Source: an uncultured Candidatus Saccharibacteria bacterium (GTDB lineage Bacteria; Patescibacteriota; Saccharimonadia; Saccharimonadales; CAYUUR01). Taken from it: a DNA stretch of 64,000 nt. The stretch is taken from NCBI GenBank assembly GCA_964448075.1, contig CAYUUR010000002.1:94010-158009 (forward strand). The letters run 5' to 3'. How positions within the stretch are numbered: position 1 is the first letter of the stretch; each line of letters starts with the position of its first letter. The translations under genes and the position numbers were made by a program. The notes under the pieces are model-generated. The model ran no database searches and had not been told where the DNA came from. It saw nothing but the letters and a program-made list of their open reading frames with translations. Positions 14,392 to 29,148 of the stretch are shown piece by piece.

Positions 14392-14958
14392 TTATAGTGA
14401 TCCGGCGTAGACTATGGCTTCGCCGTTTGCGAGTTCTTCGGGGATGATATCGGCAAGTGTTCGGTTGTTGAGTTTTATCTCGTACCCATCGTCAAACGGC
14501 AAGACGAGCGTTTGGTGCACCGCACTGCTCAGGTCAAGTTCATGCGCAACTTCTTGGCCATGCTCAGTCGCTAGCGTTTGTAAAAACGCTTGGGCAACAG
14601 CAAAATCAGGATAGAAGAATTCCATATGCTCTACGCCAACAATCCCTTTACCAAGTTTTTCTGGACGGGGCTCCATGATCTCAACAATCTCAACCTTGCC
14701 AAGACGCCCAATACTGAGGCCACTCATAAGCATGGCTGTTCCTAGGCGTCTTTCGCCCTTACGCACATACGTAATTGCACGGGAAACCGGACGAAATTCC
14801 TCCATAGTCTCAATGAAGTGCTCTCCGTCTCTACATTTAATAGCAATATGGTCTGGCTCAACAAACCACTCGCTCGGTAAGTTATGCTGGGCAATGTAGT
14901 CACTCGCCGCTAAAGCGAAGTCCGCCACCTCTGCCTTAAATTGACTCATACCGGTCAT
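14392..14958 (-). CDS. YecM-like VOC-superfamily protein
   Basis: 188 aa. PDHIAIKC, IVEIMEPRPEKLGKGIVGVEHMEFFYP and IKLNNRTLADII line up with E. coli YecM (ADHISLRC, IVELPWPGEKRYPHEGWEHIEIVLP, IKFHPWSIEEIV). Confidence 0.55.
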   Translation of the reverse strand: MTGMSQFKAEVADFALAASDYIAQHNLPSEWFVEPDHIAIKCRDGEHFIETMEEFRPVSRAITYVRKGERRLGTAMLMSGLSIGRLGKVEIVEIMEPRPEKLGKGIVGVEHMEFFYPDFAVAQAFLQTLATEHGQEVAHELDLSSAVHQTLVLPFDDGYEIKLNNRTLADIIPEELANGEAIVYAGSL

Positions 14959-15374
14959 CTGCTCCCTCCATCCTTAATTGGTAGATGTTCTATTTCGATT
15001 GGTGTCTTTAGTTTTTTTGCTATGTCAGCGAGGTTCAGATCCAGAAATTCATAACTAAAACCTTGCTCGGAGGCTGGAGTCGCATAGACTATTCTGTCTA
15101 TCTCTGCCCAGGCTGCACAGCTGAAGCACATCAAGCATGGCTCGTGGCTGCCATACATAGTGCCACCGTTAAGATTGTGGTTGCCTATCTTTTTGCAGGC
15201 TGCCCTGATCGCAGAAGTCTCGGCATGCAGGGTAGGATCATGTTCTTCGTGAACGTGATTGTGCTCAACAGCAAGCACTTCTCCATTTCTCACAATTACC
15301 GCTCCGAAGTTTCTTGGTGCTTGCTGCTCGTTACCCTTGTCTATTGTCATCTGCAAGTAATCTTGGTCGGTCAT
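14955..15374 (-). CDS. CDA-fold zinc deaminase (TadA/guanine-deaminase-like)
   Basis: HAETSAI ... PCLMCFSCAAWA (H(A)E / PCxxC). Start set at MTDQDY (ATG 15374), forming an ATGA overlap with the upstream stop. Confidence 0.8.
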   Translation of the reverse strand: MTDQDYLQMTIDKGNEQQAPRNFGAVIVRNGEVLAVEHNHVHEEHDPTLHAETSAIRAACKKIGNHNLNGGTMYGSHEPCLMCFSCAAWAEIDRIVYATPASEQGFSYEFLDLNLADIAKKLKTPIEIEHLPIKDGGSR

Positions 15375-15745
15375 AGTTCGCTCCAGGTGCTTACAGGAAA
15401 CAACATATGCATGCCAACTATGTCGCATGCAGCCTCAACTGCCGCAGAGTATTCCGGAGCAACCTGCCGCTGACACAGTATAAAATGCCCGAACTCGTGC
15501 CCTAAAGTCATTAATCGCGCAGCTTCATCCTGTCGTGGGTTGAGATAAATTGTCCGCGCGTCATAAAACAGCTGGCCTTGACCAATAATACTCCGCTCCA
15601 ACACAGCAATACTGTGCATCCGAAGCGTAGCACCAATGTCGATAGCGCCATTGTCAGCAAGCACGGTGTTATCCTGTAGCCACGACTTGATGCCGTGTCT
15701 TGCAAACAATTCTCTGCCCTGTACTACTTCAGAAGGTATCCACAC
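15371..15745 (-). CDS. ImmA/IrrE-family (COG2856-like) metallopeptidase domain protein
   Basis: 124 aa with LGHEFGHFIL (HExxH). GTG start overlaps the polA TAG by 1 nt. Confidence 0.65.
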   Translation of the reverse strand: MWIPSEVVQGRELFARHGIKSWLQDNTVLADNGAIDIGATLRMHSIAVLERSIIGQGQLFYDARTIYLNPRQDEAARLMTLGHEFGHFILCQRQVAPEYSAAVEAACDIVGMHMLFPVSTWSEL

Positions 15746-18417
15746 TAGAGTTCGCCCCAGTTCTTGCCGCTCACGGTATCTACCGTCAGTTTGACCGGCA
15801 ACTTAACCACCCCTTCCATAGTCTCTTTCAGAAGTGCCGCTATACTTTCAACGTCTTTTTCTGGACATTCAACCAGTATGGAGTCATGAATCTGGAGTAA
15901 CATGTCACAGTCTTTGCCGTCTAAGGCCTGTCCGAGCTTCACCATAGCAAGCTTCATAATGTCAGCCGCGCTGCCCTGAAACGGCATATTAACTGCCGCT
16001 CGGTAGGCTGCTTCGCGCACCATGAAGTTTGACGACTTAACATCGGGTGTCGGACGTCGTCGTCCAAAGATTGTTTCGACATACCCCTCCTCGGCTGCCT
16101 GTTTTTTGACCGAGTCAATGTAGCCTTTCAGTTTTGGGCGAACTTCAAAGTATTTTTCTATGAACTCTTTGGCCTGACCATAAGTCATGCCGGTTGCCGC
16201 TACGAGGCCGTGGGCACTTAGCCCGTACATCACGCCAAAGTTAACAACCTTGGCGTCACGTCGCATGTTCTTGCTGACTTCTTCTGGATCATATCCATAT
16301 ACCTCAGCCGCTGTCATAATATGAACATCTACATCGCGATTGAACTGATCAATGAGCTTTTCATCACCACAGAGATACGCCGCCAGGCGTAGTTCAAACT
16401 GTGAGTAATCGGCACTTACGAGCGCCTTGCCTTTGCCGGCTACAAAAGCCGTACGAATATGCCGTCCAAGCTCGGTACGGATTGGGATATTTTGCAGATT
16501 TGGATCAGTACTACTCAGTCGCCCCGTTTGGGCTATTGTTAAGTTAAAGGTCGTGTGCAGGCGCGATTCTTCATCCACCATCGTCGGCAATGTATCAATA
16601 TAGGTATTTTTGAGCTTTGTGACTTCTCTATATTGGGTAATAAGGTCGATGATGGCGTGTTTACCGCGCAATTTGTCGAGTTCGGTTGCGGCCGTTGAAT
16701 ACCCAGTCTTACCACGCTTAATACCTTCTGTTGGCAGCTTCATTTTATCGAACAACACTTCAGCCAATTGGCTTGGACTACTGATATTGAATTCTTGGTT
16801 AGCATGACCATAAATTTGTTGTTCAACATCACTAATAGTGTCGTTGATTTGATGAGAAAACTTCTTTAGGTACGCGGTGTTGAGTTCAATGCCGCGGTAT
16901 TCCATACGAGCAATCACCGGAATAACTGGCCATTCAACATCATGTGCCAACTGAGAGACTTTGGGCATATCTTTGAGCTGTTTTACCTGTTGGTCATAGA
17001 GTGATTTGATGACCGCAATTATTTCTGGCTCCAAGCCCACCAACTCTTCCCCACTAAGGTTTTCGAAACCTGAACCCTCATAACCAAGGTCGGTTTGCGC
17101 CAATTCTGTAATACTCTGAACGCGACGCAAGCTGTCTATCAGGAACGCCCCAACCATAACGTCGTGTTCGACCGTTGGTAGCTCAATGCCGAGTTCGATC
17201 AATATCTTAAGTACATTCTTGACGTCATAGCCGACAAGTTTAGTCTTGCTCAGGAATGACAGCGCTTGCGTGGCCGTGGCGGCATCAATTGACGCGAGGT
17301 CAATGGTGTAGGTATCTTTGCCGTCTAAACTCAGCGCCAGCAAGAGCGGCTTGCGGCCGTGTTTCCCGGCAGTCATGCCATGAACAAAAATATGCTTAGG
17401 TACGCCGAAATCTACAGCCTGTAACTGTTCGGTGGTTGCAATATGGTTCGATTTGCCAACCTTAATACTACTTGGCATATGTACGGCTGCTTGGTCTTCA
17501 GCGCTCATTTGCATTACTTCAGGTAGTTGTCGTACGAGGCTACGGAATTCGAGTCGTTGCAAGATATCACGGATCTTCTCTGGGTCGCAGTTGCTGACAT
17601 CAAGACTTTTGAGATCGAGCTTAATCGGCGCATCCGTCCAGATTGCCGCAATCTTCTTGCTCAAATACGCCAGGTCTCGGCCCGCTTCGAGCTTTTTACG
17701 AAGAGAATCCTTAACGAGTGCGAGATTGTCGTATACACCGTCAAGTGTTTCGTGAGCCTTGAGCAGTTCCAATGCTCCCTTTTCGCCAATACCCGGCACA
17801 CCAGGAATATTGTCTGAGGAGTCGCCCTTGAGGGCTTTAAGATCTAAAAATTGCGTGGCTTTAATGCCGTATTTGGCTTCAAAGCTTTCAGGTGAGTACA
17901 ATTCAATGTTGCTGAGTCCTTTTTTGAGCGCAAAAACATGAATGTGTGGATCAATAAGTTGCAACATGTCCATGTCAGAGGTAATAAGCATAGTTTCTAT
18001 GTCTTGTTTGGCGGCCTGTACAGCTAATGTACCCATAATGTCATCTGCTTCATAATCGTCGAGTTCATAAAGTGGCCAGCCAAATGCTTCGAGTACTTCA
18101 TGAAGGATCGGGATCTGCTCATAAAAATCTGGTGGTGGCGGTTTGCGACCAGCCTTGTATTCTGGATATAACTCTAGGCGCTTGCGGATATTTGTCTTGG
18201 GTTTGTCCCAGGCCACGCAGACATAATCTGGCTTGAGCCGCTTGAGCACCTCAAGTGCCATACTTGAAAAACCAAACACGCCACCGGTCGGCGTACCGTC
18301 TTTCATGCTGAGATTCGGCATGGCGTAGTAACCACGATAAAACACCGACTTACCATCAATAATGGCCAGCTTCTTCTTTTTGGTCGCCTCACTCATACGT
18401 ATAGTATACGCTACCAC
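15745..18417 (-). CDS. polA: DNA polymerase I
   Basis: 5' nuclease (LAIIDGKSVFYRGYYA, GDSSDNIPGVPGIGEKGA), a central exo-like domain, and pol motifs (DYSQFELRLAAYL, RRDAKVVNFGVMYG, QIHDSILVE). The start is either GTG 18417 or ATG 18396. Confidence 0.95.
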   Translation of the reverse strand: MVAYTIRMSEATKKKKLAIIDGKSVFYRGYYAMPNLSMKDGTPTGGVFGFSSMALEVLKRLKPDYVCVAWDKPKTNIRKRLELYPEYKAGRKPPPPDFYEQIPILHEVLEAFGWPLYELDDYEADDIMGTLAVQAAKQDIETMLITSDMDMLQLIDPHIHVFALKKGLSNIELYSPESFEAKYGIKATQFLDLKALKGDSSDNIPGVPGIGEKGALELLKAHETLDGVYDNLALVKDSLRKKLEAGRDLAYLSKKIAAIWTDAPIKLDLKSLDVSNCDPEKIRDILQRLEFRSLVRQLPEVMQMSAEDQAAVHMPSSIKVGKSNHIATTEQLQAVDFGVPKHIFVHGMTAGKHGRKPLLLALSLDGKDTYTIDLASIDAATATQALSFLSKTKLVGYDVKNVLKILIELGIELPTVEHDVMVGAFLIDSLRRVQSITELAQTDLGYEGSGFENLSGEELVGLEPEIIAVIKSLYDQQVKQLKDMPKVSQLAHDVEWPVIPVIARMEYRGIELNTAYLKKFSHQINDTISDVEQQIYGHANQEFNISSPSQLAEVLFDKMKLPTEGIKRGKTGYSTAATELDKLRGKHAIIDLITQYREVTKLKNTYIDTLPTMVDEESRLHTTFNLTIAQTGRLSSTDPNLQNIPIRTELGRHIRTAFVAGKGKALVSADYSQFELRLAAYLCGDEKLIDQFNRDVDVHIMTAAEVYGYDPEEVSKNMRRDAKVVNFGVMYGLSAHGLVAATGMTYGQAKEFIEKYFEVRPKLKGYIDSVKKQAAEEGYVETIFGRRRPTPDVKSSNFMVREAAYRAAVNMPFQGSAADIMKLAMVKLGQALDGKDCDMLLQIHDSILVECPEKDVESIAALLKETMEGVVKLPVKLTVDTVSGKNWGEL

Positions 18418-18674
18418 TACCGGGCGCGGCGTGCCCTAATAATCCTCGTCCGTTGTTTTTCCGATGTCCCGCCCCACACACCATGCTCAATACGATTATC
18501 GAGAGCGTATTCAAGACAGACCTCTCGCACGACACAGGTTGCGCATATTTTCTTTGCTACCTCAACGCCCGCCCTATCATGAGGGAAAAATGTCGCAGGC
18601 GACTCAAACCGGCAAGCACCTTCTTGCATCCATTCAGTATCTCCGACGTGCGTTGGTCGCTCCATATAGCCCAC
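18417..18674 (-). CDS. WhiB-like (Wbl) Fe-S transcriptional regulator
   Basis: 85 aa with C21 ... C44-x2-C47-x5-C53, GVWGGTSEKQR and a basic tail RIIRARRAR. Confidence 0.85.
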   Translation of the reverse strand: MGYMERPTHVGDTEWMQEGACRFESPATFFPHDRAGVEVAKKICATCVVREVCLEYALDNRIEHGVWGGTSEKQRTRIIRARRAR

Positions 18675-18711
18675 AGTCTAGTGCCTCTATCTCAGATTGC
18701 AAGCGTGAGCG

Positions 18712-19287
18712 TTATACGAAGAGAATCGCGCTAGCCACAGAGAAGTAAATAAGAATACTAATGACGTCCTGAAAAATCGTCTTGAACGGCCCGGCACCGA
18801 CGGCAGGATCCTGATGTTCGGTCTGAAACAGCTTGGCGGTAACGAGGGCGACGATTGGCGCCACAGCGACCGATCCTGCCATGGCGATGGCAATCGTGCT
18901 GCTGAGTGAGACGTCCTTGAACCATAGGTAGGTAAAACCAAAGGTAAGGAAACCGAAGACACAGCCAAACAGCACGCCCAAGAAGGATTCTTTCACAAGG
19001 TACGTATGGAAGTAGCCCTTTTTATCAGCTAGGTTGCGTACATATATGGTCTCAGTCTGAGTACCTACCGCATCACTCAAGTACACGATGACAGGTAAAA
19101 AGAATGCCAAGCGCACATCACTTGCCAGCACTGACTCGTAGTTTGAGATTAGTATCGAGGCGCCAAAACCACCTAATAATCCTGCTACTAACCACGGCAA
19201 GCGCAGCTTGAGCAAAAACCCCACCGACTCTTTGAGATCATCGGCCATAATGACCTTTTGCATGTGCTTTTTGGAATGCTTTTTCAT
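18712..19287 (-). CDS. MgtE-type divalent cation transporter, membrane domain only
   Basis: FFLPVIVYLSDAVGTQTETIYVRNL and multiple TM helices. No N-terminal or CBS domains. Confidence 0.65.
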   Translation of the reverse strand: MKKHSKKHMQKVIMADDLKESVGFLLKLRLPWLVAGLLGGFGASILISNYESVLASDVRLAFFLPVIVYLSDAVGTQTETIYVRNLADKKGYFHTYLVKESFLGVLFGCVFGFLTFGFTYLWFKDVSLSSTIAIAMAGSVAVAPIVALVTAKLFQTEHQDPAVGAGPFKTIFQDVISILIYFSVASAILFV

Positions 19288-19358
19288 TATTTACCTCATT
19301 ATACTGCATATGGTTATAGTTCCCTCTTTTGTCGACTTCTCGTATACTAATCAGCGAT

Positions 19359-22112
19359 ATGCCAAAACCAACACCAGACAAACCGTATTATCAACTGTCG
19401 CCCGAACAAACAGTCAGCCGACTTACTACCAATACAGATGGGTTGAGTGCTGACGAAGCCGCCAAGCGGCTCGAAACAAACGGCGCCAACCGCCTGGAGG
19501 ATCTGCACAAAGAAAGCTGGCTGATCAAGTACCTGCGCCAGTTCAAAGACCTTATTATTGTGCTCCTCATCGCCAGCGCTGGTATCTCGTACCTCTTGGG
19601 TGAACATCAAACCGCTATTGCACTCGGGATTGTCATCTTGCTCAACACGGCGCTTGGTTTCCGCCAAGAATACAAAGCGGAGAAAATTATGGAGAGTTTG
19701 GAGCGACTAGTGGTGCCGGCTACCCGCGTGATGCGCGACGGCAAGCTGCAAGAAGGCACCTCCCCAGACCTCGTCGTCGGTGATGTCGTCTATATCGAGG
19801 AGGGCGACTCAGTGCCTGCCGATCTGCGTCTCCTCAGCGAATCACAATTATCATGTAATGACTTCGCGCTGACCGGTGAATCCAACCCATCACGCAAGAC
19901 GATTGAGGCAATCCACGGCAACGTACCGCTCGGCGACCGACACAACATGCTCTATATGGGCACAACTGTAGCGACGGGCCATGGCTATGGCGTGGTGGTG
20001 GCGACGGGCATGCAGACTGAGCTTGGTAGGATTGCCGGTCTGAGTGCCAGCACCAAGAGTGATCAGAGCCCGTTGCAGAAAGAAATGGATAATGTAGCCA
20101 AGCGTGTCACGCAAGCCACTGTGGGTATCTTCTTGTTGCTACTGCTTATTGCAAATAGTAGTGATATTGGTTTTGAGGCGGCCTTTTTGTTTGCGGTGGC
20201 GGTGGCGGCGTCATTGGTACCGCAAGGCTTGCCCGCAGCCATTAGCACTGTTTTGTCGCAAGCTGCTCACAAAATGGTTGACGCCAAAGCACTCGTCAAA
20301 AAGCTCTCTGCCGTCGAAACCCTCGGTGCCACCAGCATTATTTGCACGGACAAGACAGGCACCCTGACTAAGAATCAAATGACGGTCGAACAGCTCTGGA
20401 TTGCCGGCAAAACCTACCACGTCACCGGCGGTGGCTACCAACCCAGCGGACACGTGACGTACAAAGGCAAATCTCTCTCAACTGAAGAACTGAGAGCGCT
20501 CGACACGTTCTTTGCCACTGGTAGCCTGGCCAGCAACGCGCGGATTCATGAGCCAGACAATGAACACCCTGAGTGGTACTGCCTGGGCGATCCGACCGAA
20601 GGCGCCCTCGTTACTTTGGCCGAAAAAGCCAAGCTCGATACCGTAGAACTAGAATCGCTTTATCCTGAGCTCAAACAATTCTCCTTTGATTCTGCTCGTA
20701 AGCGCATGAGTTCCATCCGCACCTACGGAGACAAAAAACTCCCCCACGTCTTTGCCAAAGGCGCCCCAGAAAACATCCTGGAACGCTGTACTCACATATG
20801 GGACAACGGCAAGGTCCGTAAGCTGACCACGACGGACAAAGCAACGATTCTCAAACACAACGAGACGCTGGCTACACAAGCCATGCGCAACCTGGCCTTT
20901 GCCTTCAAGCCGCTCGAGGCCAAAACAAACATCGATAAAATGGATGAAGACGACGCCGAATCCGGCCTGACCCTGCTCGGTATGGTATCGATGATAGATC
21001 CACTGCGCGAAGAAGTGCCAGCCGCCATGCAGGCTGCCCACGAAGCCAATATCCGCATCGCGGTCGTCACGGGCGACTACGCCAGTACAGCCCAGGCAAT
21101 CGCCAAGAAAGCAGGCTTAGGCGTCAGTCACGATATCGTCGTGGTCAGCGGCGAAGAAGTCAAAGCTATGGACGACGCCAAAGTCCTGGAGCTCGCCACC
21201 CGCGGCTCTGTCATCTTCAGCCGTGTCTCACCAGAAGATAAACTCCGTATCGTCGGACTCGTCAAAGACAGCGGCCGGGTCGTGGCCGTGACGGGCGATG
21301 GCATCAACGACGCACCAGCACTCAAACGCGCCGACATCGGTGTCGCCATGGGCGTAACGGGTACCGACGTGGCCAAGCAGTCCAGCGAGATAGTGCTGCT
21401 CGATGACAGCTTCAATACACTCGTCCATGCCGTCCAGCAAGGCCGTACCATCTTCCAAAACATCAAGAAGATTACACTTGTGGCGTTTGTGGCTAACTTC
21501 TCTGAGCTTGTCGTCAACCTAGCTGCACTGATTGCCGTCAGCCTCTACTCTGCCCCGTTGGCACTCACCGTCATGCTGATTATCGCCATCGACCTCATCG
21601 CCGAGCTCTTCCCTATGGTGGCACTCGGTTGGGATAAAGCCGAAGGCGAAGTCATGCGTGAACAACCACGCGATCCAAAAGATCACATCCTGAACAAACA
21701 CACCATCCGTACCATCATGTGGGCTGGCGGCTTAATCGGTATATTGTCATTTGCCAACTTCGCCTTCTTCTTCTGGCGTAATAACCTCGGCTTTTCTGAG
21801 GTCGAACAAGACTCCCTGCTGCAGATGCAAGCTAGCACTCTCACCTATGTCACTATCATGCTCTGCCAGCTGGTCAATATTTTGTTTATGCGCTCTCGTA
21901 AAGGCTTGTTCACCCGTTATCAGCTACATAACAGTAAGTTGCTTATGGCATTTGGCCTATCAATCGCCTCCGTACTCGCCATTGTCTATGCACCGTTCCT
22001 ACAACCATTCTTTGGCAGCGCTTCACTCACTGCAACCGACTGGGCAACAGCTGTCGCTGCCGCCCTCATCTTCGGCTTCATCCGCCAGCTAAGCTACCTC
22101 AAACGGACATAG
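19359..22112 (+). CDS. P-type (P2-like) cation-transporting ATPase
   Basis: ICTDKTGTLTKNQM, TGES, TGDGINDAPALKRADIGVAMG, about 10 TM segments. ATG 19359 chosen; the track ORF begins at TTG 19329. Confidence 0.9.
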   Translation: MPKPTPDKPYYQLSPEQTVSRLTTNTDGLSADEAAKRLETNGANRLEDLHKESWLIKYLRQFKDLIIVLLIASAGISYLLGEHQTAIALGIVILLNTALGFRQEYKAEKIMESLERLVVPATRVMRDGKLQEGTSPDLVVGDVVYIEEGDSVPADLRLLSESQLSCNDFALTGESNPSRKTIEAIHGNVPLGDRHNMLYMGTTVATGHGYGVVVATGMQTELGRIAGLSASTKSDQSPLQKEMDNVAKRVTQATVGIFLLLLLIANSSDIGFEAAFLFAVAVAASLVPQGLPAAISTVLSQAAHKMVDAKALVKKLSAVETLGATSIICTDKTGTLTKNQMTVEQLWIAGKTYHVTGGGYQPSGHVTYKGKSLSTEELRALDTFFATGSLASNARIHEPDNEHPEWYCLGDPTEGALVTLAEKAKLDTVELESLYPELKQFSFDSARKRMSSIRTYGDKKLPHVFAKGAPENILERCTHIWDNGKVRKLTTTDKATILKHNETLATQAMRNLAFAFKPLEAKTNIDKMDEDDAESGLTLLGMVSMIDPLREEVPAAMQAAHEANIRIAVVTGDYASTAQAIAKKAGLGVSHDIVVVSGEEVKAMDDAKVLELATRGSVIFSRVSPEDKLRIVGLVKDSGRVVAVTGDGINDAPALKRADIGVAMGVTGTDVAKQSSEIVLLDDSFNTLVHAVQQGRTIFQNIKKITLVAFVANFSELVVNLAALIAVSLYSAPLALTVMLIIAIDLIAELFPMVALGWDKAEGEVMREQPRDPKDHILNKHTIRTIMWAGGLIGILSFANFAFFFWRNNLGFSEVEQDSLLQMQASTLTYVTIMLCQLVNILFMRSRKGLFTRYQLHNSKLLMAFGLSIASVLAIVYAPFLQPFFGSASLTATDWATAVAAALIFGFIRQLSYLKRT

Positions 22113-22126
22113 CACACGCTAGAGAC

Positions 22127-23110
22127 TTATCGTCTATCAAGCGATTCTTGGAGCTTGCGGAGCTTGGCTGCGAATGAATGAAACTCTCCAGGGATTTGGT
22201 TAGCAGGTGTGTCTGCTGGAATCTTTACCACACCATCTCTGAATGCTTGCGTATCTTGAACCAGTGCGCGTAAAGTCGCGCGCCCATACATACCGACGTC
22301 AAACGATCGTCCATCTTCCCATCCAGCGCGTACCGCGTCGAATGCACGCGCGGCATAGGTACCGCTCGTATCCAGTCCGACACCGGTCGTCTCATCACCA
22401 GTTGCGCGTAATACCCTGCTCACAAACATCATGAGTGCAGCGCTATCCGGCTGGAAACGATACTTTTTGGCGCCCGTTTCATCAACGAAATCCTCACGAT
22501 CAACGCGCAGCAACATAACTGGTTTCTCGTTCACGGTGCCAATCTGTATCAACTGTCCGGTTTCTGCCTCGATGAGTGAATTTTCTGGATCAAGCGCATA
22601 ACCGAATGACATGACCACCGGTGTTTCAAATGCCTCATACCCCTCCAGATTACGCGCCACCAGCTCAGCTACGTCATACTCGGTCAGATCAGTTTCTGTT
22701 CTGTACTTTTCAGCCAGATAGGCCTGCTCATCTGCACCAACCTTACGATTCGCGGAGCCAGCGAAGATGATCGTCTCAGCTGCAGCAGTACCCATGGCAG
22801 CTTCGGCCTCGATCTTCCAGGGCTTACCGCCATCTACGATGCGCACCTCAGCCGTACCTGGCACATCTTGTTCAGCACCAACACCAAATCGAGTTGCGAC
22901 CTCACGCAGCGCCTCGATGTACGGCTCCATAGCTTCATCAAGCACTGCATCAGCCCGGGTTTCGGGCGGCTCAGGAAACACAGTCAGCGGATCCACCTCG
23001 CGGTCCCCTGTCACAATCTCTACTGCATCCCACAGCCATTCCTGACGTTCAGCGATATACGCCTCAACTCGTTCCCTGGCACCCTCATTTGTCTGCGAAA
23101 ACTCACTCAT
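22127..23110 (-). CDS. hypothetical protein (distant paralog of 24504..25466?)
   Basis: 327-aa ORF, acidic. ETIIFAGSANRKV, PVMLLRVD and GLDTSGTYAARAF occur in the same order as QIVVLGGTQRANNV, HIVLLNTP and GFISGNPYLERTA in the other ORF. Confidence 0.55.
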   Translation of the reverse strand: MSEFSQTNEGARERVEAYIAERQEWLWDAVEIVTGDREVDPLTVFPEPPETRADAVLDEAMEPYIEALREVATRFGVGAEQDVPGTAEVRIVDGGKPWKIEAEAAMGTAAAETIIFAGSANRKVGADEQAYLAEKYRTETDLTEYDVAELVARNLEGYEAFETPVVMSFGYALDPENSLIEAETGQLIQIGTVNEKPVMLLRVDREDFVDETGAKKYRFQPDSAALMMFVSRVLRATGDETTGVGLDTSGTYAARAFDAVRAGWEDGRSFDVGMYGRATLRALVQDTQAFRDGVVKIPADTPANQIPGEFHSFAAKLRKLQESLDRR

Positions 23111-23153
23111 TACTCTTACTCCTATTTCGTTACTATTGCCGTAATTGTGCGTA

Positions 23154-23603
23154 TCATGTGACAGCTTCTATATACAATTCATCTTCTATGGCTTTGTTCA
23201 CCATGCGTACGAAGCCGTCTCGACGACGACCTTTCATCGGAAGTTCAAATCGAGTGTTATTGTTTTGAATGCAGGCGTCATTTACACTCCCATCAATCGC
23301 AAGCACCAATCTGTTCGTATTCACACGATCAGTGTCTTCATCAATAAGCACGGTGTCATACAGTGAGACCTCTATCTCATCAGACGGAAGCTTAGTTACA
23401 CGCACGCACGATTCATCATCAAAGCCTATGAATCGCACTACCTCGTCATAGTTTGGATCCTGAAATCCGCCATCAGCGAGCAGTTCATCAAGTCGCTGAT
23501 ACAAAAGTGGATACTTCTGCTCAGCCGTGTGTTCTGGGTTATATTGGGTCATAAAATCATCTCCTTTCAAAGATTCGGCCATATCATACCGTTCATGACT
23601 CAT
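23154..23603 (-). CDS. hypothetical acidic protein
   Basis: 149-aa ORF with no recognisable motif. Confidence 0.5.
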   Translation of the reverse strand: MSHERYDMAESLKGDDFMTQYNPEHTAEQKYPLLYQRLDELLADGGFQDPNYDEVVRFIGFDDESCVRVTKLPSDEIEVSLYDTVLIDEDTDRVNTNRLVLAIDGSVNDACIQNNNTRFELPMKGRRRDGFVRMVNKAIEDELYIEAVT

Positions 23604-23706
23604 TTTGTCAATGTCTTTTCACATAATTTTCTGACTTTATTTCCTTTGTAAGAAACTTCGTGAATTTTGTATTCACATTTTGTGACTATTGTGCTACACT
23701 CGTAGC

Positions 23707-24507
23707 ATGAACAAACTACATGCCGCCGGCCTCAGCGATACAGAGGCCAAAACGTACGAATCCTTACTGTCTCGAGCTGCCTGGCAACCGAGCGAACTTG
23801 CCAAAACTGTCGGTGAATCGCGCACAAATATGTATAAAATTCTTGATAAATTAGTGTCGCTTGGCCTTGCCAAAAAGTTCGATCAAGACAAAAAAATCCA
23901 CTACGCGGCCGTCAATCCAGGCAGATTGCTCGAACTCGCCCATGCCCGCCGTCAGGCTCAGGAGCAGGCCGAAAAGGAGCTTCAGGTTCACTCGCAACAG
24001 CTCATCCGTTCGTACGTCAAAACACATGAGCAGCCCGCAATAACCTACTACCAGGGCAAAGATGAAATGCGCGAGATATTTGATGTGATCGAGAATGCGA
24101 ATGAAGAAATTGTATTCGTGCATACCGTAGCCGGGATTGATTTCTACGGCTTTGACTTCATGCATCAACTACGTATGCGGGCGGTAAAAAGCGGACGGAC
24201 CCGGCGTGGCTTGACCCCTGATACAGCGCTCGCCACTGTTGATTACAAAGAAAAGGATGCGCTCGTTAATCTGACGCGTACCTGGCTCAAAGCAGAAGAT
24301 TACACCGCTCCCGTTGAGTGGGGTGCCTTTGATGACAAACTGTATATCATCTCTTACGGTGAGGATGCGCTTGGTATGGTCATCCAGAATCAGCAAATCG
24401 CTGATGCGTTCAAGCAATTGTTTGCCCTCTTAGAACGCGGGCAGCACGCCTTGCCTGATTACGGCTCATTACCGCTGCTCGCCTCTCGTAAGGGCCGCAC
24501 AGACTAG
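23707..24507 (+). CDS. TrmB-family HTH transcriptional regulator
   Basis: MNKLHAAGLSDTEAKTYESLLSRAAWQPSELAKTVGESRTNMYKILDKLVSLGLA is a TrmB N-terminal wHTH. Start moved to ATG 23707. Confidence 0.8.
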   Translation: MNKLHAAGLSDTEAKTYESLLSRAAWQPSELAKTVGESRTNMYKILDKLVSLGLAKKFDQDKKIHYAAVNPGRLLELAHARRQAQEQAEKELQVHSQQLIRSYVKTHEQPAITYYQGKDEMREIFDVIENANEEIVFVHTVAGIDFYGFDFMHQLRMRAVKSGRTRRGLTPDTALATVDYKEKDALVNLTRTWLKAEDYTAPVEWGAFDDKLYIISYGEDALGMVIQNQQIADAFKQLFALLERGQHALPDYGSLPLLASRKGRTD

Positions 24508-25466
24508 TGCGTCTGGTCTAGATATATATTACGAGCGATCTCACCCAAGAACAGATAGTCCTTATCAGGATCACTGTACGCAGCCGGGCCGGCCGGTATG
24601 AGGTCGATGTCCGCCCGATCATGGTTCGTCAGCACACCCTGGACGACTCGTGCGGTGCGTTCAAGATATGGGTTACCACTGATAAATCCAACTTTCGCGC
24701 CATTTGGTGGCTGGACCTCTTGAAGCCACTGCTCGGTACAAGCTTCTGTGGTGTGACGAGGTTCACCGTTTGGTCGGGCGACAGCTGGTGTATTCAACAG
24801 TACAATGTGAGTGCCGTGCTCTCCCGCAAGCTCATAGCGGCTAACCGGCACTTCGGCGTTACCGAAACGCAAGTGTGCCTTCTGTACACTAAGGTTACCA
24901 AGGTGCTGTAAGGCAGACAGCCGCAACAGTTCTGTTTCGCTCAGCGGCCCAGTGTAGTTTTCGAGCCACGGATTCGTGATGCCTGCTGCCTGAATACCCT
25001 TGAAGCTGTCTGCAACATACGGTGTTTCGAGCCCATCAAACATTGCGCGCTGACCACCCCACAGCACAACGCTACCTTGCTCCGCCAACGACACATCGCC
25101 AGACTGCAGCGCAGCTTCCAAGAATTTCATACGGACATTGTTGGCACGCTGTGTGCCGCCAAGCACCACAATTTGATCATACTCCCTTGACGGCAGCGGC
25201 CAGGCGTCAACCATACCCATCTGCCGGTAGAGTTCACGGGCCTGCTGTGACTGCTCAGAAGTGAACTCCAGTTTGTGTTCTGGCTTGAAGTGATCACCCT
25301 TGACCCAGGGCTGCGTAACCTCAACAACTTTGTCGAGGTCTTCGCTCCAATCAGCCTCCATGCCCAAAACTGTAAACAGCTCATGAAGTTCTGGTTTGTG
25401 GGCATCAAAAAACCGGCCGTCCGTTATGGCCTGTTGTTCATGCTGTTGGCCAGGTGCTGAAATCAT
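24504..25466 (-). CDS. hypothetical protein (Rossmann-like pattern; see 22127..23110)
   Basis: 320-aa ORF containing QIVVLGGTQRANNVRMKF. Overlaps the TrmB gene end by 4 nt (convergent). Confidence 0.55.
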   Translation of the reverse strand: MISAPGQQHEQQAITDGRFFDAHKPELHELFTVLGMEADWSEDLDKVVEVTQPWVKGDHFKPEHKLEFTSEQSQQARELYRQMGMVDAWPLPSREYDQIVVLGGTQRANNVRMKFLEAALQSGDVSLAEQGSVVLWGGQRAMFDGLETPYVADSFKGIQAAGITNPWLENYTGPLSETELLRLSALQHLGNLSVQKAHLRFGNAEVPVSRYELAGEHGTHIVLLNTPAVARPNGEPRHTTEACTEQWLQEVQPPNGAKVGFISGNPYLERTARVVQGVLTNHDRADIDLIPAGPAAYSDPDKDYLFLGEIARNIYLDQTH

Positions 25467-25536
25467 AACCTATATTATAGCATAAGCGTCGTGATTTTTC
25501 AATCTCTAGCCTCTGGTCGGCACATTTATTCTTGTA

Positions 25537-26556
25537 CTATCGAGTTATGGGAGAGACCGTGCGTTTGGTAGCTTTTAGGAGCACACGGCGTTTGCGGGGT
25601 TTGACTTTTTTGGTGTAGACGACGAACGGGTCTTTTTCGATCTGTTCGGCTGTCCATTTGTACATATCATTGGCGGTTTCCAGGGGCACGCGCAGGCGTT
25701 TGGGGATGAAGCGGAGGCCCTTGTCGGCTTCAGCCTGCCACTCTCGGTAGCGTTTGAGCTGTAAATCGATTAACTTCTTGAAGGCTTCGGGGTGCTCGCG
25801 GGCGGTCGCTTCCTTCAGGTCCTTGAGGCCGTATTTCTTGAGGTCAGTGGTCGGAATATACTGCCGGCCAAGCTCATTATCTTCAGCGATATCGCGCACA
25901 AAATTGATCCACTGCATGGCTCTGCCCTGCATCTCGGCCGCGTGCTGAATCGTTCGCTTTTCACGCTCAATCGCTTCTTTGGTGATGTCTGTTTGTTTGG
26001 TTAGACGGTACTGAACGTGCGAGCGAGTGCTTTTGGCCAGGCGTTTGGGTAGCTTCTCTTGCTTGTGGCGGGCTGCCTCGGCTTCCAGATGAAGTACGCG
26101 ACGGATGTTTTTGGCCCGATCAATCCCCATGACGCGCGCCATCATCAGCCCAATCACCTCTGCGGAGCCATAGACGTACTTGAGTGAACTCTCCAAATCA
26201 GCATGTGATCGCGATGCAACGTCTCGCTTCATCGCTTCCAAGAACGCGGGCACCCACTCTGGATCAAACTTGAACTTGCGGCTGACCTGGACAACATTCT
26301 TGACCACGCGGGTGTCGAGCTCGTCCCACTGATGTGTGATGGACTCAAAGTTTGGGTCAGCCATGGCTTTTTTGTAGGCGTCTTCGAGTGCCGTCAGCTT
26401 CTTTGGCTGAGCAGGCCGCGCATCAACATAGTCATCGGCCACACGCACGAAGCTGTAGAGACGGAAGACGTCATGCCGGACTTCTTTTGGGAAAAACCGT
26501 GAGCTGAAGTAATACGTCGTGCTGCCTTGCTTGAATATATCCTTCTCAGTGTTCAT
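25537..26556 (-). CDS. squalene/phytoene synthase family protein
   Basis: GSTTYYFSSRFFP, YSFVRVADDYVD and NFVRDIAEDNELGRQYIP (two Asp-rich motifs). A ~55-60-aa charged insertion lies between them. Confidence 0.85.
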   Translation of the reverse strand: MNTEKDIFKQGSTTYYFSSRFFPKEVRHDVFRLYSFVRVADDYVDARPAQPKKLTALEDAYKKAMADPNFESITHQWDELDTRVVKNVVQVSRKFKFDPEWVPAFLEAMKRDVASRSHADLESSLKYVYGSAEVIGLMMARVMGIDRAKNIRRVLHLEAEAARHKQEKLPKRLAKSTRSHVQYRLTKQTDITKEAIEREKRTIQHAAEMQGRAMQWINFVRDIAEDNELGRQYIPTTDLKKYGLKDLKEATAREHPEAFKKLIDLQLKRYREWQAEADKGLRFIPKRLRVPLETANDMYKWTAEQIEKDPFVVYTKKVKPRKRRVLLKATKRTVSPITR

Positions 26557-27659
26557 GATGTCCGTACCAATAAGTATTCCGCGAGGCCGCGTAAGAATGT
26601 AACACCTTCATCTGACCATCCATTCGTGTCATCATCAAGGCTTTTGAGGGCTTTATTCACATGAACCTCTGCTTGCTCGCGGGCGTAATCATAGGCGCCT
26701 GACTCTACTAAGATGTCTTTGCAGCGTTGGAATTCAGCTTGCGTGAGATTGTGATTACCCAGCATGTGGATGAGGAAGTTTTTGTCGGCTCGCTTGGCGT
26801 GCTCGATGGCGTGCAGCGTCAGAACAGTACGCTTGCCTTCGCGCATGTCATCCATCGGACTTTTGCCGCTCTCAAACTCGCTACCAAATATTCCCAAGAT
26901 ATCGTCAGTGATCTGGAAGGCCCGGCCGGCATGCATGGCATACTCAGTGATGGATTCGAGCGCATGTTCGTCAGCGCCAGCCAGGACCATGCCGACATGC
27001 AACGGATTGAGGAACGTGTAGTGCGCGGTCTTCCACTCAAGCACGCGATCAATATCATCCTTCGTAACTTCAGCACTCACTTCATTCATGATGTCATTGG
27101 TCTGACCGTGGGCGGTGGTAATCATCGTCTGGTTCACCAGTTCAATCACCCGATTACGGACTTCAACCGGTACATCAAGATTAGTAAGCGTCATTTGAGC
27201 GCCATGACAACCCAGGAGCGCAGAATTGAGAGCAATTGCGATGCCAAAGTGCGCCTCTTCATCCGCCAGCCGGTGCGCCCGATGATAGTCACTGAGCATG
27301 ATATGCGCTGTCGGACCACCACGACGTACGACCGAGCGGTCTTGGATGTCATCGATGATTAGAATGTAGGCATGGAGCATTTCGAGCGCCCGGGCCGCTT
27401 CCAAAATCATTGCCTTGTCTTTGCCACCTGACATTTCGTACCCCATCATGACGAGTGCGCCACGAATACGTTTGCCGCCACGCTCGAGAATGCTTGTATA
27501 GGCGTCAGCGGCCAGACGAGCGTAGGCGCCGTAGGTCTTGAAGGTCTCTTGTTTGTTGTGTTTGACGTACTCGGCAATGTCGTCGTCAATCAGCTGCTTA
27601 TACGTGCCAAGCTGTTGTTTGAACAAAAGAATGGCGGATTCATTCGCCTCAGTATGCAT
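26553..27659 (-). CDS. polyprenyl diphosphate synthase (GGPP/FPP synthase family)
   Basis: LIIDDIQDRSVVRRG (first DDxxD) and FQITDDILG (second motif, last Asp replaced by Gly). 4-nt overlap with the downstream synthase gene. Confidence 0.9.
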   Translation of the reverse strand: MHTEANESAILLFKQQLGTYKQLIDDDIAEYVKHNKQETFKTYGAYARLAADAYTSILERGGKRIRGALVMMGYEMSGGKDKAMILEAARALEMLHAYILIIDDIQDRSVVRRGGPTAHIMLSDYHRAHRLADEEAHFGIAIALNSALLGCHGAQMTLTNLDVPVEVRNRVIELVNQTMITTAHGQTNDIMNEVSAEVTKDDIDRVLEWKTAHYTFLNPLHVGMVLAGADEHALESITEYAMHAGRAFQITDDILGIFGSEFESGKSPMDDMREGKRTVLTLHAIEHAKRADKNFLIHMLGNHNLTQAEFQRCKDILVESGAYDYAREQAEVHVNKALKSLDDDTNGWSDEGVTFLRGLAEYLLVRTS

Positions 27660-27676
27660 AGAGTAATTATAGCAGG

Positions 27677-28252: not shown

Positions 28253-28300
28253 CGCCTCTATTCTAACCTATCGGGGGTTATTTCTCTATGCTGTTTGCAC

Positions 28301-29041: not shown

Positions 29042-29148
29042 TATTATGTATCCTTTCATTAGTTTGACACCGCACTAGTGTATACAACTACAAGCTTGTC
29101 TGCTTGATGCAATTATGATAAAATAATGACGTTTCTAACCTGTTTATC

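What the first reader, a model, noticed from the sequence alone, without database searches (positions are those of the whole stretch)
18417..18674. Canonical WhiB-like regulator translationally coupled to polA
The sequence shows all Wbl hallmarks: four Cys with C-x2-C-x5-C, GVWGG, and a basic C-terminal tail. Wbl proteins are generally regarded as restricted to Actinobacteria and their phages. Yet the rest of the window (CarS-family gene, minimal operons, zinc-less primase) does not look actinobacterial. The wbl stop overlaps the candidate polA GTG start by 1 nt, so it heads a wbl-polA-immA-deaminase-yecM operon. If the genome is from an epibiont of Actinobacteria, this may be a host-derived gene wired to DNA repair.
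Basis: partly seen in the sequence, partly recalled or inferred. Interest (0 to 1): 0.55.

Follow-up and report, generated by a model that had tools for sequence, protein, structure and literature searches.

The report
WhiB-like regulator in a Saccharibacteria genome
A small iron-sulfur transcription factor said to occur only in Actinobacteria and their phages is a real, selected gene in a Saccharibacteria genome (bacteria that live attached to Actinobacteria), most likely captured long ago from that host phylum, but it is not translationally coupled to the DNA polymerase gene beside it.

Summary
The ORF at 18417-18674 (minus strand) is a genuine Wbl protein: Pfam Whib 77.7 bits, C21-x22-C44-x2-C47-x5-C53, GVWGG, all four aromatic-patch residues and a basic tail. 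The window is Saccharibacteria (Candidatus Saccharimonadota), not Actinobacteria. The protein belongs to a Wbl subfamily ("NRIEHGVWGG") otherwise found in Acidimicrobiia (56-73% core identity) and is nearest to, but distinct from, WhiB/WhiB2.

Wbl genes are rare and patchy in this lineage. Of 76 evaluable polA-anchored loci, 4 have a wbl abutting polA and about 8 have one within 4 kb. The copies are probably polyphyletic, so at least two captures are favoured but not proven. The gene is not recent: its GC3 equals polA's, and dN/dS is 0.08.

The claimed 1-nt stop/start coupling is not supported. polA starts at the ATG at 18396, behind its own conserved -10 box (TAGCGTATACT, then 6 nt, then ATG), which also occurs in relatives without wbl. 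wbl has its own conserved promoter-like element.

One mechanistic puzzle remains: the lineage's sigma-70 lacks the His516-Pro517 anchor that every tested Wbl needs (it reads K-H instead).

Verdict: a new member of a known family in an unexpected phylum, of moderate interest.

The parts
18417..18674 (-). wbl coding sequence (85 aa from GTG 18674; more likely 82 aa from ATG 18665). Carries C21/C44/C47/C53, GVWGG 65-69, aromatic patch W15/F29/F30/W67 and a basic tail.
   Evidence: dN/dS is 0.08 against L172.
18675..18702 (-). Promoter-like element of wbl: -35 TTGCAA (18697-18702), 16-nt spacer, -10 TAGACT (18675-18680), then 9 nt to ATG 18665.
   Evidence: Conserved in the window, L172 and L081, although synonymous sites between the window and L081 are saturated. 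Inferred from conservation; not shown experimentally.
18397..18416 (-). 20-nt wbl-polA spacer holding the conserved box TAGCGTATACT (18403-18413). Its -10 hexamer TATACT ends 6 nt before the polA ATG, which is leaderless-type geometry.
   Evidence: A strict form of the box is found in 30 of 82 Saccharibacteria-like polA loci and relaxed forms in most others, including loci without wbl.
15745..18396 (-). polA (DNA polymerase I, 883 aa from ATG 18396).
   Evidence: Pfam DNA_pol_A, 5_3_exonuc_N and 5_3_exonuc. Start fixed by comparison with L172, L081, L173 and L031.
15371..15745 (-). ImmA/IrrE-like M78 peptidase gene. Its start overlaps the polA stop by 1 nt.
14955..15428 (-). Cytidine/dCMP deaminase gene, overlapping the previous gene.
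   Evidence: A deaminase also follows polA in L031.
14392..14958 (-). YecM-like gene (weak Pfam match), overlapping the deaminase gene by 4 nt.
   Evidence: Its cluster includes MBP7807154.1, labelled Candidatus Saccharibacteria bacterium.
18712..19287 (-). MgtE-like membrane-domain gene, 37 nt upstream of wbl on the same strand. It has its own TATAAT box 10 nt before its ATG.
   Evidence: The same neighbour is present in L172.
18703..30863 (.). About 12 kb variable accessory island between rpoD and wbl/polA. Contents: methyltransferase, OmpR-like protein, SDR, AAA_18 kinase, polyprenyl synthetase, squalene/phytoene synthase, TrmB-like regulator, P-type ATPase, MgtE-like gene and several orphan ORFs.
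   Evidence: In relatives the distance from the end of rpoD to polA ranges from 116 nt to more than 3.8 kb.
30864..32126 (-). rpoD (primary sigma-70), the presumed Wbl partner. Its C-terminal stretch (30867-30914) reads [16 protein letters not shown] where other primary sigmas have KLRHPSRS.
   Evidence: His516-Pro517 of M. tuberculosis SigA corresponds to Lys-His here.

Best explanation
This is a functional WhiB-like [4Fe-4S] transcription factor gene resident in a Saccharibacteria genome. It belongs to a Wbl subfamily (signature W-M-x-EG-x-CR...FFP-x-DG-x-GVEVAKKIC-x2-C...CLEYAL-x-NRI[ED]HGVWGG) that is otherwise typical of Acidimicrobiia, where it is a paralog separate from WhiB/WhiB2.

The most likely history is an old horizontal capture from Actinobacteria, the phylum that known Saccharibacteria parasitise. 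The capture was followed by full compositional amelioration, strong purifying selection, and vertical descent within a small clade (window, L172, L081, L173, L084). A second Saccharibacteria lineage (L031, L174) probably captured a related copy independently, and other lineages carry other Wbl types.

The gene sits at the polA-proximal edge of a variable accessory slot in the conserved dnaG-rpoD-(kinase)-polA backbone. It is transcribed from its own promoter as a near-leaderless mRNA. polA has its own leaderless-type promoter in the 20-nt spacer, so the two genes are neighbours rather than a translationally coupled pair. Read-through from wbl into polA is possible because no terminator lies between them.

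Inferred mechanism, by homology with WhiB1, WhiB3, WhiB7 and Streptomyces WhiB: the four Cys hold a [4Fe-4S] cluster. The aromatic patch beside the cluster docks on region 4 of the primary sigma factor in RNA polymerase. The Arg/Lys tail makes non-specific DNA contacts upstream of the -35 region. Cluster damage by O2, NO or oxidants changes the output.

Shown here: domain identity, motif conservation, selection, taxonomy, synteny and the promoter-like elements. Inferred only: cluster binding, sigma docking and the regulon.
For: - Family membership: Pfam Whib 77.7 bits. Best solved relatives are Streptomyces WhiB 62.5 bits, WhiB1 48, WhiB4 45, and WhiB7/WhiB3 about 37. Invariant W15, C21, F29, F30, P31, C44, C47, C53 and G65-G69 across 46 homologs.
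- Saccharibacteria origin of the window.
- Closest relatives: 79 of the 80 best species-representative loci are Acidimicrobiia or other Actinomycetota. Core identity of the window protein is 73% to L082 (actinobacterial context) against 57% and 56% to the Saccharibacteria copies in L084 and L031.
- Actinobacterial contexts of the near neighbours (ppk-wbl-FTCD-whiB2, GC 0.65-0.75).
- Rarity: a Wbl-domain ORF within 4 kb upstream of polA in about 8-10 of 80 polA-anchored loci, abutting polA in 4. The L031 type has one other close relative, and the L138 type none, among 5.8 billion clusters.
- Polyphyly: quartet bootstrap of 98.6% for (window, L082 | L031, L072). All-Saccharibacteria monophyly in 0 of 300 NJ bootstraps. 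149 of 180 ML quartets favour split origins, mean RELL 0.68.
- Old residence and selection: GC3 0.50 for wbl and 0.50 for polA, against 0.73-0.93 in actinobacterial relatives. dN/dS 0.08.
- Vertical descent within the clade: the PolA tree groups the window, L081 and L084. Wbl/PolA identities to the window are about 70/85 (L081), about 58/69 (L084) and 56/56 (L031).
- Separate promoters.
- Variable slot.
Against: - The lineage's primary sigma-70 lacks the His516-Pro517 anchor. S512-K-L-R-H516-P517 of M. tuberculosis SigA reads A-K-L-R-K-H here. H516A abolishes binding of every Wbl tested (PMC13013590, PMC10245118). Canonical docking on the organism's own sigma is therefore unproven.
- The phylogeny rests on only 71 aligned sites. 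The window-type clade has just 20% NJ bootstrap support, and single-origin quartets keep a mean RELL of 0.19.
- The AlphaFold model is of low confidence (pLDDT 60) and found no fold match.
- No WhiA or Fe-S assembly gene was seen among about 39 window ORFs scanned. Only 64 kb of the genome is available.
- Different Wbl types recur immediately 5' of polA, and an Acidimicrobiales subgroup has a similar linkage. A pure hotspot explanation does not fully account for this.
Confidence: 0.62

Rival explanations
1. Functional wiring to DNA repair. wbl lies directly upstream of polA because selection favours Wbl-controlled or Wbl-co-induced expression of the polA-immA-deaminase-yecM unit. This could work through read-through from an autoregulated wbl promoter, or by Wbl acting at the polA promoter, whose -35 region lies inside the 3' end of wbl.
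For: - At least five sequence-distinct Wbl types lie 7-38 nt upstream of polA in Saccharibacteria-like contigs: the window type, L031/L174, the WhiB2-like L139, the divergent L138 and the two-domain L089.
- All five Wbl-anchored Saccharibacteria contexts have polA immediately downstream.
- An Acidimicrobiales subgroup has a same-class wbl 136-720 nt upstream of its own, unrelated polA.
- No terminator-like site lies between wbl and polA.
Against: - polA keeps the same -10 box and spacing in relatives that lack wbl, so polA expression does not need Wbl.
- The slot just 5' of polA is highly variable and carries many unrelated genes, so adjacency can arise from an insertion hotspot.
- The polA-anchored sample is biased towards finding polA-linked copies.
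- L168 carries a same-class wbl with no polA nearby.
Confidence: 0.2
2. Ancient shared or single-origin inheritance. One wbl was placed upstream of polA in an early Saccharibacteria ancestor (or is even older than the phylum) and has since been lost from most lineages. The apparent polyphyly is then noise from a 71-residue alignment.
For: - The same position, strand and spacing occur in two lineages whose PolA proteins are only 56% identical.
- All copies are fully ameliorated.
- 24 of 180 ML quartets, with mean RELL 0.19, allow Saccharibacteria monophyly.
Against: - Monophyly was recovered in 0 of 300 NJ bootstraps, and 149 of 180 ML quartets go against it.
- Long-branch attraction would pull the two Saccharibacteria groups together rather than apart.
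- The sister loci L085-L087 lack wbl.
- L139 carries a different Wbl class, 82% identical to Streptomyces WhiB, in the same slot. That copy cannot descend from the same ancestral gene.
Confidence: 0.12
3. Host-directed factor. The protein is kept to bind the actinobacterial host's sigma-A rather than the epibiont's own sigma-70, as actinophage Wbl proteins do.
For: - The organism's own sigma-70 lacks the His516-Pro517 anchor.
- The protein keeps every feature needed to bind actinobacterial sigma-A region 4, and stays 73% identical in its core to actinobacterial orthologs despite saturated synonymous divergence.
- Phage Wbls bind host sigma-A in a His516-dependent way (PMC13013590).
Against: - The N-terminus (MGYMERPTHVGDTEW...) shows no hydrophobic signal-peptide-like stretch when read directly.
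- Exporting a folded Fe-S protein into another cell has no precedent known to me.
- The gene has an ordinary promoter like its housekeeping neighbours.
- A His one residue later in the sigma tail may be enough for docking.
Confidence: 0.05
4. Assembly or binning artefact, or a decaying relic. The wbl would belong to a contaminating actinobacterial fragment, or be a dying pseudogene.
For: Saccharibacteria co-occur physically with Actinobacteria, so chimeric assemblies are conceivable.
Against: - The gene sits inside a 289 kb contig.
- The same junction with Saccharibacteria-type polA appears in seven independent assemblies: the window, L172, L081, L173, L084, L031 and L174.
- GC and GC3 match the flanking genes.
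- dN/dS is 0.08 with the ORF and all motifs intact.
Confidence: 0.01

Closest known systems
Acidimicrobiia 'NRIEHGVWGG' Wbl subfamily (unnamed; for example the proteins in L082, L006, L016, P0046, and Aquihabitans L040/L072)
   Same: Same subfamily signature across the whole domain, the same C-x22-C-x2-C-x5-C spacing, and 56-73% core identity to the window protein.
   Different: In Actinobacteria it sits in high-GC genomes, usually near a canonical whiB2-type paralog (ppk-wbl-FTCD-whiB2), and has C-x2-C-P-V. The window clade has C-x2-C-V-V, a host-like GC3 of 0.50, and lies upstream of polA in a Saccharibacteria genome.
Streptomyces WhiB / M. tuberculosis WhiB2 (class II Wbl; PDB 8DY7, 8DY9)
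   Same: It is the best solved-structure match (62.5 bits), with the same Cys spacing, the FFP motif, the G-[VI]-WGG turn and an Arg-rich tail.
   Different: Core identity is only 42%. A true WhiB2-class protein such as L139 scores 127 bits against the same chain. In Acidimicrobiia the two types coexist as separate paralogs. The WhiA partner was not found in the part of the window that I scanned.
M. tuberculosis WhiB1 (PDB 5OAY, 6ONO), the reference for sigma-A region 4 docking
   Same: The aromatic patch W3/F17/F18/W60 corresponds to W15/F29/F30/W67. Both share the four Cys, GVWGG and a basic C-terminus (PMC13013590).
   Different: WhiB1 has a loop five residues longer between the first two Cys, and core identity is 39%. 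Its partner SigA has His516-Pro517, whereas the window's sigma-70 has Lys-His at those positions.
Actinophage Wbl proteins (for example the WhiB2 homolog of phage TM4)
   Same: They are Wbl genes outside actinobacterial chromosomes, held by an entity that exploits Actinobacteria, and they spread by horizontal transfer (PMC13013590).
   Different: The best viral-contig matches are only 50% identical. The window gene sits in a cellular chromosome, with no phage genes identified beside it apart from an ImmA-like peptidase.

Membership tests
Wbl (WhiB-like) family, Pfam PF02467 / IPR034768 | Matches the family profile above the curated threshold | tested here: met
   77.7 bits against a cutoff of 23.6, E 1e-21, covering profile positions 1-64 of 65.
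Wbl (WhiB-like) family, Pfam PF02467 / IPR034768 | Four conserved Cys, C-x(n)-C-x2-C-x5-C, for a [4Fe-4S] cluster | tested here: met
   C21, C44, C47 and C53 are present and invariant in 46 homologs. Actual cluster binding cannot be tested with these tools.
Wbl (WhiB-like) family, Pfam PF02467 / IPR034768 | Gly-rich beta-turn G-[VI]-W-G-G | tested here: met
   G65-V-W-G-G69, invariant across the alignment.
Wbl (WhiB-like) family, Pfam PF02467 / IPR034768 | Aromatic patch AP1-4 used for sigma-A region 4 binding (W3, F17, F18, W60 of WhiB1) | tested here: met
   W15, F29, F30 and W67 align with these residues (alignment to 5OAY). The feature is defined in PMC13013590.
Wbl (WhiB-like) family, Pfam PF02467 / IPR034768 | Basic C-terminal DNA-contacting tail | tested here: met
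   Residues 73-85 (KQRTRIIRARRAR) contain six Arg and one Lys.
Wbl (WhiB-like) family, Pfam PF02467 / IPR034768 | The cognate primary sigma factor carries the His516-Pro517 docking pair | tested here: not met
   The window's RpoD reads A-K-L-R-K-H where M. tuberculosis SigA has S512-K-L-R-H516-P517. The same is true of every primary RpoD tail recovered from the related loci, about 40 in all. This is a property of the partner, not of the Wbl itself.
Wbl (WhiB-like) family, Pfam PF02467 / IPR034768 | Four-helix Wbl fold around the cluster | tested here: inconclusive
   The AlphaFold2 model has pLDDT 60.3. Its helices at 12-23, 37-46, 50-59 and 72-84 fit the Wbl layout, but Foldseek against the PDB returned no match.
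Wbl (WhiB-like) family, Pfam PF02467 / IPR034768 | Restriction to Actinobacteria and actinophages, as stated in reviews | tested here: not met
   The window and L031 are Saccharibacteria. The reviews stating exclusivity are PMC6282962, PMC10245118 and PMC13013590. This is a distributional statement, not a structural criterion.
WhiB/WhiB2 subclass (class II) | Orthology to Streptomyces WhiB / M. tuberculosis WhiB2 | tested here: not met
   It scores 62.5 bits and is 42% identical in the core, against 127 bits and 82% for the true class member L139. It forms a separate clade from the whiB2-type paralogs of the same Acidimicrobiia loci.
WhiB/WhiB2 subclass (class II) | Acts together with WhiA | not testable with these tools
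   No WhiA domain was found among about 39 window ORFs scanned with Pfam. The rest of the genome is not available here.
   The polA start is the ATG 20 nt downstream of the wbl stop, and L172 has an in-frame stop upstream of that ATG. A conserved -10 box lies 6 nt before the ATG, including in loci without wbl.

The most novel reading that the evidence does not exclude
The Saccharibacteria Wbl cannot dock in the canonical way on its own sigma-70, which lacks His516-Pro517. It is instead retained, and repeatedly re-acquired from Actinobacteria, because it acts on the host's sigma-A, as phage Wbl proteins do. That would make it a transcription-hijacking factor of an epibiotic parasite.
Probability: 0.05. 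Interest if true: 0.9.

Novelty: new member of a known kind. Interest (0 to 1): 0.55.

Why it matters
Reviews and a 2026 structural and phylogenetic study state that Wbl proteins occur only in Actinobacteria and their phages (PMC6282962, PMC13013590). Here, a canonical Wbl under strong purifying selection sits in Saccharibacteria, whose cultivated members are obligate epibionts of Actinobacteria. It probably arrived more than once.

This matters for three reasons:
- **Regulator transfer.** It is a concrete case of regulatory genes, not just metabolic ones, moving from a host phylum into a reduced-genome epibiont.
- **A natural experiment on docking.** The recipient's sigma-70 has Lys-His where every tested Wbl needs His-Pro. 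Either docking tolerates a shifted His or the protein has another partner, and a simple pull-down can decide between these.
- **A caution for annotation.** Wbl genes are sometimes used as markers for an actinobacterial or actinophage origin in metagenomes, and that use is not safe.

Automated annotation already labels such proteins (for example MBP9738440.1), so the sequences themselves are not new. The open-access literature I searched does not discuss them.

Tried and rejected
- **NCBIfam scan of the Wbl:** no model matched, so it gave no subclass name.
- **AlphaFold2 with a 46-sequence alignment:** pLDDT was only 60, and Foldseek against the PDB found nothing. I did not use it as evidence. 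A complex with sigma region 4 could not be modelled with these tools.
- **Generic promoter/terminator scan:** it missed both promoter-like elements because they score 8 of 12 under its rule. They were found by comparing loci instead.
- **Rfam scan of the window:** it found only two tRNAs, and no riboswitch near mgtE or wbl.
- **Viral contig scan:** the best match was 50% identical, so there is no sign of a phage vector for this subfamily.
- **Cluster look-ups for organism labels:** most close homologs carry no label. The taxon of L168 (tandem wbl pair, GC 0.52) stays unresolved.
- **Small ORFs upstream of polA in loci without wbl:** none is a degenerate Wbl.
- **Exact polA box as a general motif:** at full stringency it is rare in the window. 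The general feature is only the -10 hexamer at 5-10 nt.
- **Co-transfer of wbl with polA from Acidimicrobiales:** rejected. Saccharibacteria PolA is only 33% identical to the Acidimicrobiales PolA and forms its own clade.
- **Literature searches:** WhiB paired with Saccharibacteria, Patescibacteria, TM7 or candidate phyla radiation returned only papers about host WhiB genes or phages.


Full report
**1. What is at the coordinates**

On the minus strand, 18417-18674 is an 85-aa ORF (GTG start): MGYMERPTHVGDTEWMQEGACRFESPATFFPHDRAGVEVAKKICATCVVREVCLEYALDNRIEHGVWGGTSEKQRTRIIRARRAR. It matches Pfam Whib (PF02467) at 77.7 bits, E 1e-21, against a cutoff of 23.6. It carries the following features:
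- C21-x22-C44-x2-C47-x5-C53
- the G65-V-W-G-G69 turn
- a tail with six Arg and one Lys in the last 13 residues
- W15, F29, F30 and W67, which align with the aromatic patch W3/F17/F18/W60 that WhiB1 uses to bind sigma-A region 4 (alignment; the patch is defined in PMC13013590)

The observation of a canonical Wbl is confirmed. This is far beyond chance.

**2. What organism this is**

The window comes from a 289,361-bp NCBI contig. Its PolA falls in a 90% identity cluster with MBP7807157.1, 'DNA polymerase I [Candidatus Saccharibacteria bacterium]'. Its YecM-like protein clusters with MBP7807154.1 from the same source. Window GC is 0.49 throughout. A labelled Saccharibacteria MAG (L031, JAGOUG010000014) shares the local genes. 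NCBI places such organisms in the phylum Candidatus Saccharimonadota.

**3. Which Wbl it is**

- Among solved structures the best match is Streptomyces WhiB (8DY9_H, 62.5 bits). WhiB1 follows at 48 bits, WhiB4 at 45, and WhiB7 and WhiB3 at about 37.
- In a scan of species-representative genomes, 79 of the 80 best loci are Acidimicrobiia or other Actinomycetota.
- Those proteins share a clear subfamily signature with the window protein: W-M-x-EG-x-CR...FFP-x-DG-x-GVEVAKKIC-x2-C...CLEYAL-x-NRI[ED]HGVWGG.
- In the same loci a second, canonical WhiB/WhiB2-type paralog usually lies 0.3-2 kb away on the other strand.
- An actinobacterial member of the window's subfamily gives the same PDB score pattern (66.9 bits to WhiB). 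A true WhiB2-class protein scores 127 bits.

The window protein therefore belongs to a distinct Wbl subfamily that is adjacent to the WhiB2 class but not a member of it.

**4. How common Wbl is in the window's own lineage**

I anchored on the PolA N-terminal domain and fetched 80 metagenomic loci whose full-length PolA is 51-76% identical to the window's. A profile-HMM scan of all their ORFs gave these results:
- A Wbl domain lies within 4 kb upstream of polA in L084, L139, L138, L089, L155/L159/L161 (near-identical to one another) and, weakly, L088.
- Four of these (L084, L139, L138, L089) abut polA, out of 76 loci with enough upstream sequence to judge.
- The small ORFs occupying that slot in other loci are not Wbl-like.

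In a PolA tree, the window, L081 and L084 form one clade. Their sisters L085-L087 lack wbl. L031 lies far away. Database-wide, each Saccharibacteria Wbl type is a very narrow lineage:
- The window type comprises P0001/L172, P0003/L081, P0002/L173, L084 and perhaps P0096. These share a C-x2-C-V-V signature where actinobacterial members have C-x2-C-P-V.
- The L031 type has one other close relative (P0157/L174).
- The L138 type has none.

Wbl is therefore not widespread in the lineage.

**5. Origin**

*Identities.* In the 79-column core the window protein is 73% identical to L082. L082 has an actinobacterial context (ppk-wbl-TatA-FTCD-whiB2) and GC 0.65. By contrast, the window protein is 69%, 57% and 56% identical to the Saccharibacteria copies in L081, L084 and L031. 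L031 is closest (63-64%) to the Aquihabitans-type proteins L072 and L040.

*Tree tests.*
- The distance quartet (window, L082 | L031, L072) has 98.6% bootstrap support.
- In a 43-taxon NJ analysis the five window-type copies cluster, nested among L082-like proteins, but with only 20% support. Monophyly of all Saccharibacteria copies appears in 0 of 300 replicates.
- In a likelihood quartet test (Poisson model, 180 quartets), 149 favour split origins, 24 favour Saccharibacteria monophyly and 7 favour the third topology. Mean RELL supports are 0.68, 0.19 and 0.13.
- Long-branch attraction and the shared low GC would push the Saccharibacteria copies together. The opposite result is therefore conservative, but 71 sites cannot make it decisive.

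*Other captures.* L139 carries a different class altogether, 82% identical to Streptomyces WhiB, in the same position. More than one capture has certainly occurred in Saccharibacteria as a whole.

*Age.* The transfer is old. The window's wbl has GC3 of 0.50 and polA has 0.50, against 0.73 and 0.93 in L082 and L072. The same match to the flanking genes holds in L031, L081, L084 and L139. Window versus L172 gives dN 0.064, dS 0.80 and dN/dS 0.08, and more distant pairs are saturated at synonymous sites.

*Descent within the clade.* Wbl divergence scales with PolA divergence. Wbl/PolA identities to the window are about 70/85 for L081, about 58/69 for L084 and 56/56 for L031. This fits vertical descent after capture.

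*Phage route.* Phage Wbls are not close, at 50% identity at best.

**6. Relationship to polA**

*The polA start.* The stop TAG (18419-18417) shares a base with a GTG, but this is not the polA start. In L172 (the same mgtE-like, wbl, polA order; Wbl 88-89% identical) the polA frame has a stop codon just upstream of the ATG. PolA starts at an ATG in every adjacent case (MSEATKKKK in the window and L172, MTEQTKKKK in L081, MSERKK in L031 and L174), 15-38 nt after the wbl stop.

*The polA box.* The spacer holds a conserved box, TAGCGTATACT (18403-18413). Its TATACT ends 6 nt before the ATG at 18396. A strict form (CGTATA[AC]T, then 4-10 nt, then a start codon) occurs in 30 of 82 polA loci. Relaxed forms occur in most of the rest, whether or not wbl is present. 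This is the geometry of a leaderless-mRNA promoter.

*A genome-wide habit.* In the window, 23 of 68 ORFs have a TA[TGC]A[ACT]T hexamer ending 5-10 nt before a candidate start, against 3-10 of 68 at control offsets.

*The wbl promoter.* wbl has its own element: TTGCAA (18697-18702), 16 nt, TAGACT (18675-18680), 9 nt, then ATG 18665. It is conserved in L172 and L081 despite saturated synonymous divergence. This favours an 82-aa product that starts at 18665.

*Transcription units.* The mgtE-like gene upstream and the divergent P-type ATPase gene have similar boxes. No terminator-like site lies between wbl and polA. polA, the ImmA-like gene, the deaminase gene and the YecM-like gene overlap each other by 1-58 nt. 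The most likely units are therefore [mgtE-like], [wbl, with possible read-through] and [polA-immA-cda-yecM].

**7. Why next to polA?**

The backbone dnaG-rpoD-(AAA_18 kinase)-polA is conserved, but the interval just 5' of polA is highly variable. The distance from the end of rpoD to polA runs from 116 nt to more than 3.8 kb across loci. In the window it is 12.5 kb, filled with unrelated accessory genes. In L031 and L174, wbl is the only insertion between the kinase gene and polA. An accessory-gene hotspot explains much of the recurrence, and part of my sample is polA-anchored by design.

Two things still exceed what I can explain:
- All five Wbl-anchored Saccharibacteria contexts are polA-linked.
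- A subgroup of Acidimicrobiales (L045, L070, L072) has a same-class wbl 136-720 nt upstream of its own polA, which is only 33% identical to the window's.

Functional coupling therefore remains a live rival.

**8. Mechanism and its weak point**

By homology the protein should hold a [4Fe-4S] cluster, dock through the aromatic patch on region 4 of the primary sigma factor, and touch DNA through its basic tail. However, every Wbl tested so far needs His516 of sigma-A (PMC13013590; PMC10245118). The window's RpoD, and every primary RpoD tail recovered from the related loci (about 40), reads A-K-L-R-K-H-K-D where M. tuberculosis SigA reads S512-K-L-R-H516-P517-S-R. This holds regardless of whether wbl is present. 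The alignment is ungapped to the C-terminus, so the shift is real. Either a His one residue later is enough, or the partner is another sigma factor, or (least likely) the target is the host's sigma-A. No WhiA or Fe-S assembly gene was seen among the window ORFs I scanned, but only 64 kb is available.

**9. Novelty**

Reviews and recent papers state that Wbl proteins are exclusive to Actinobacteria and actinophages. Searches pairing WhiB with Saccharibacteria, Patescibacteria, TM7 or candidate phyla radiation returned nothing about Wbl encoded by these bacteria. NCBI's pipeline already names L031's protein 'WhiB family transcriptional regulator [Candidatus Saccharibacteria bacterium]' (MBP9738440.1). 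The sequences are therefore public but, as far as I could search, not discussed. This is a new member of a known family in an unexpected phylum, with an interesting mismatch in its partner. It is not a new kind of system.

Noticed in passing
window-wide; examples at 18403-18413, 18675-18680, 19298-19303, 19343-19348, 25474-25479, 27666-27671: About a third of ORFs (23 of 68) have a -10-like hexamer TA[TGC]A[ACT]T ending 5-10 nt before the start codon, against 3-10 of 68 at control offsets. This suggests that leaderless or very short-leader mRNAs are common in this Saccharibacteria genome.
   Followed up: partly
window 30867-30914 (C-terminus of rpoD, minus strand); also about 40 related loci: The near-universal primary-sigma tail KLRHPSRS is replaced by KLRKHKD[SA]KK in every primary RpoD tail recovered from this group. 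That removes the His-Pro pair used by Wbl proteins.
   Followed up: partly
window 19329-22112 (+): The P-type ATPase ORF is listed from a TTG at 19329. A TATACT box followed by 10 nt precedes the ATG at 19359 (MPKPTPDK...), which is the more likely start. That leaves room for the divergent mgtE-like promoter.
   Followed up: no
window 18703-30863: A 12 kb accessory island lies between rpoD and wbl. It includes a squalene/phytoene synthase (25537-26556) and a polyprenyl synthetase (26553-27659), which are unexpected isoprenoid genes for a reduced genome. It also holds a TrmB-like regulator and several ORFs with no Pfam match (22127-23110, 23154-23603, 24504-25466).
   Followed up: partly
L045 3794-7483; L070 4989-8625; L072 4944-8043: In a subgroup of Acidimicrobiales (including Aquihabitans daechungensis), a Wbl of the same subfamily lies between a response-regulator gene and the organism's own polA. 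This parallels the Saccharibacteria arrangement, although the PolA proteins are only 33% identical.
   Followed up: partly
L168 3702-4255: An unlabelled contig (GC 0.52, many orphan ORFs, a 607-aa AlaRS) carries a WhiB2-class wbl and a window-class wbl in tandem with a 1-nt overlap. They lie next to an FtsA-like gene, with no polA nearby. Its taxon is unresolved and it may be another non-actinobacterial carrier.
   Followed up: partly
L155, L159, L161 about 1090-2590; L089 3028-3945: Some Saccharibacteria-like contigs carry clusters of two or three highly divergent Wbl-like domains about 2 kb upstream of polA. One ORF (in L089) has two Wbl-like domains and abuts polA.
   Followed up: no
L139 711-1511: A Saccharibacteria-like contig has a WhiB/WhiB2-class protein, 82% identical to Streptomyces WhiB in the core, with a long N-terminal extension. 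It sits directly upstream of polA and has host-like GC (0.49).
   Followed up: partly
L018, L047: Two MAGs labelled Acidobacteriota carry the Acidimicrobiia-type wbl. L047 also has the usual second, whiB2-type wbl about 2 kb downstream. These are possibly mis-binned contigs.
   Followed up: no
L097 2432-3415: One Saccharibacteria-like locus has a second sigma-70-family gene, 47% identical in region 4 to the window's RpoD and with a KLRHSSRS tail, just upstream of polA. Alternative sigma factors that keep the His therefore exist in the group.
   Followed up: no
window 15371-15745 (-): An ImmA/IrrE-type M78 peptidase gene starts on the last base of the polA stop codon. It is absent from L031, where the deaminase gene follows polA directly. 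No partner repressor was identified.
   Followed up: no
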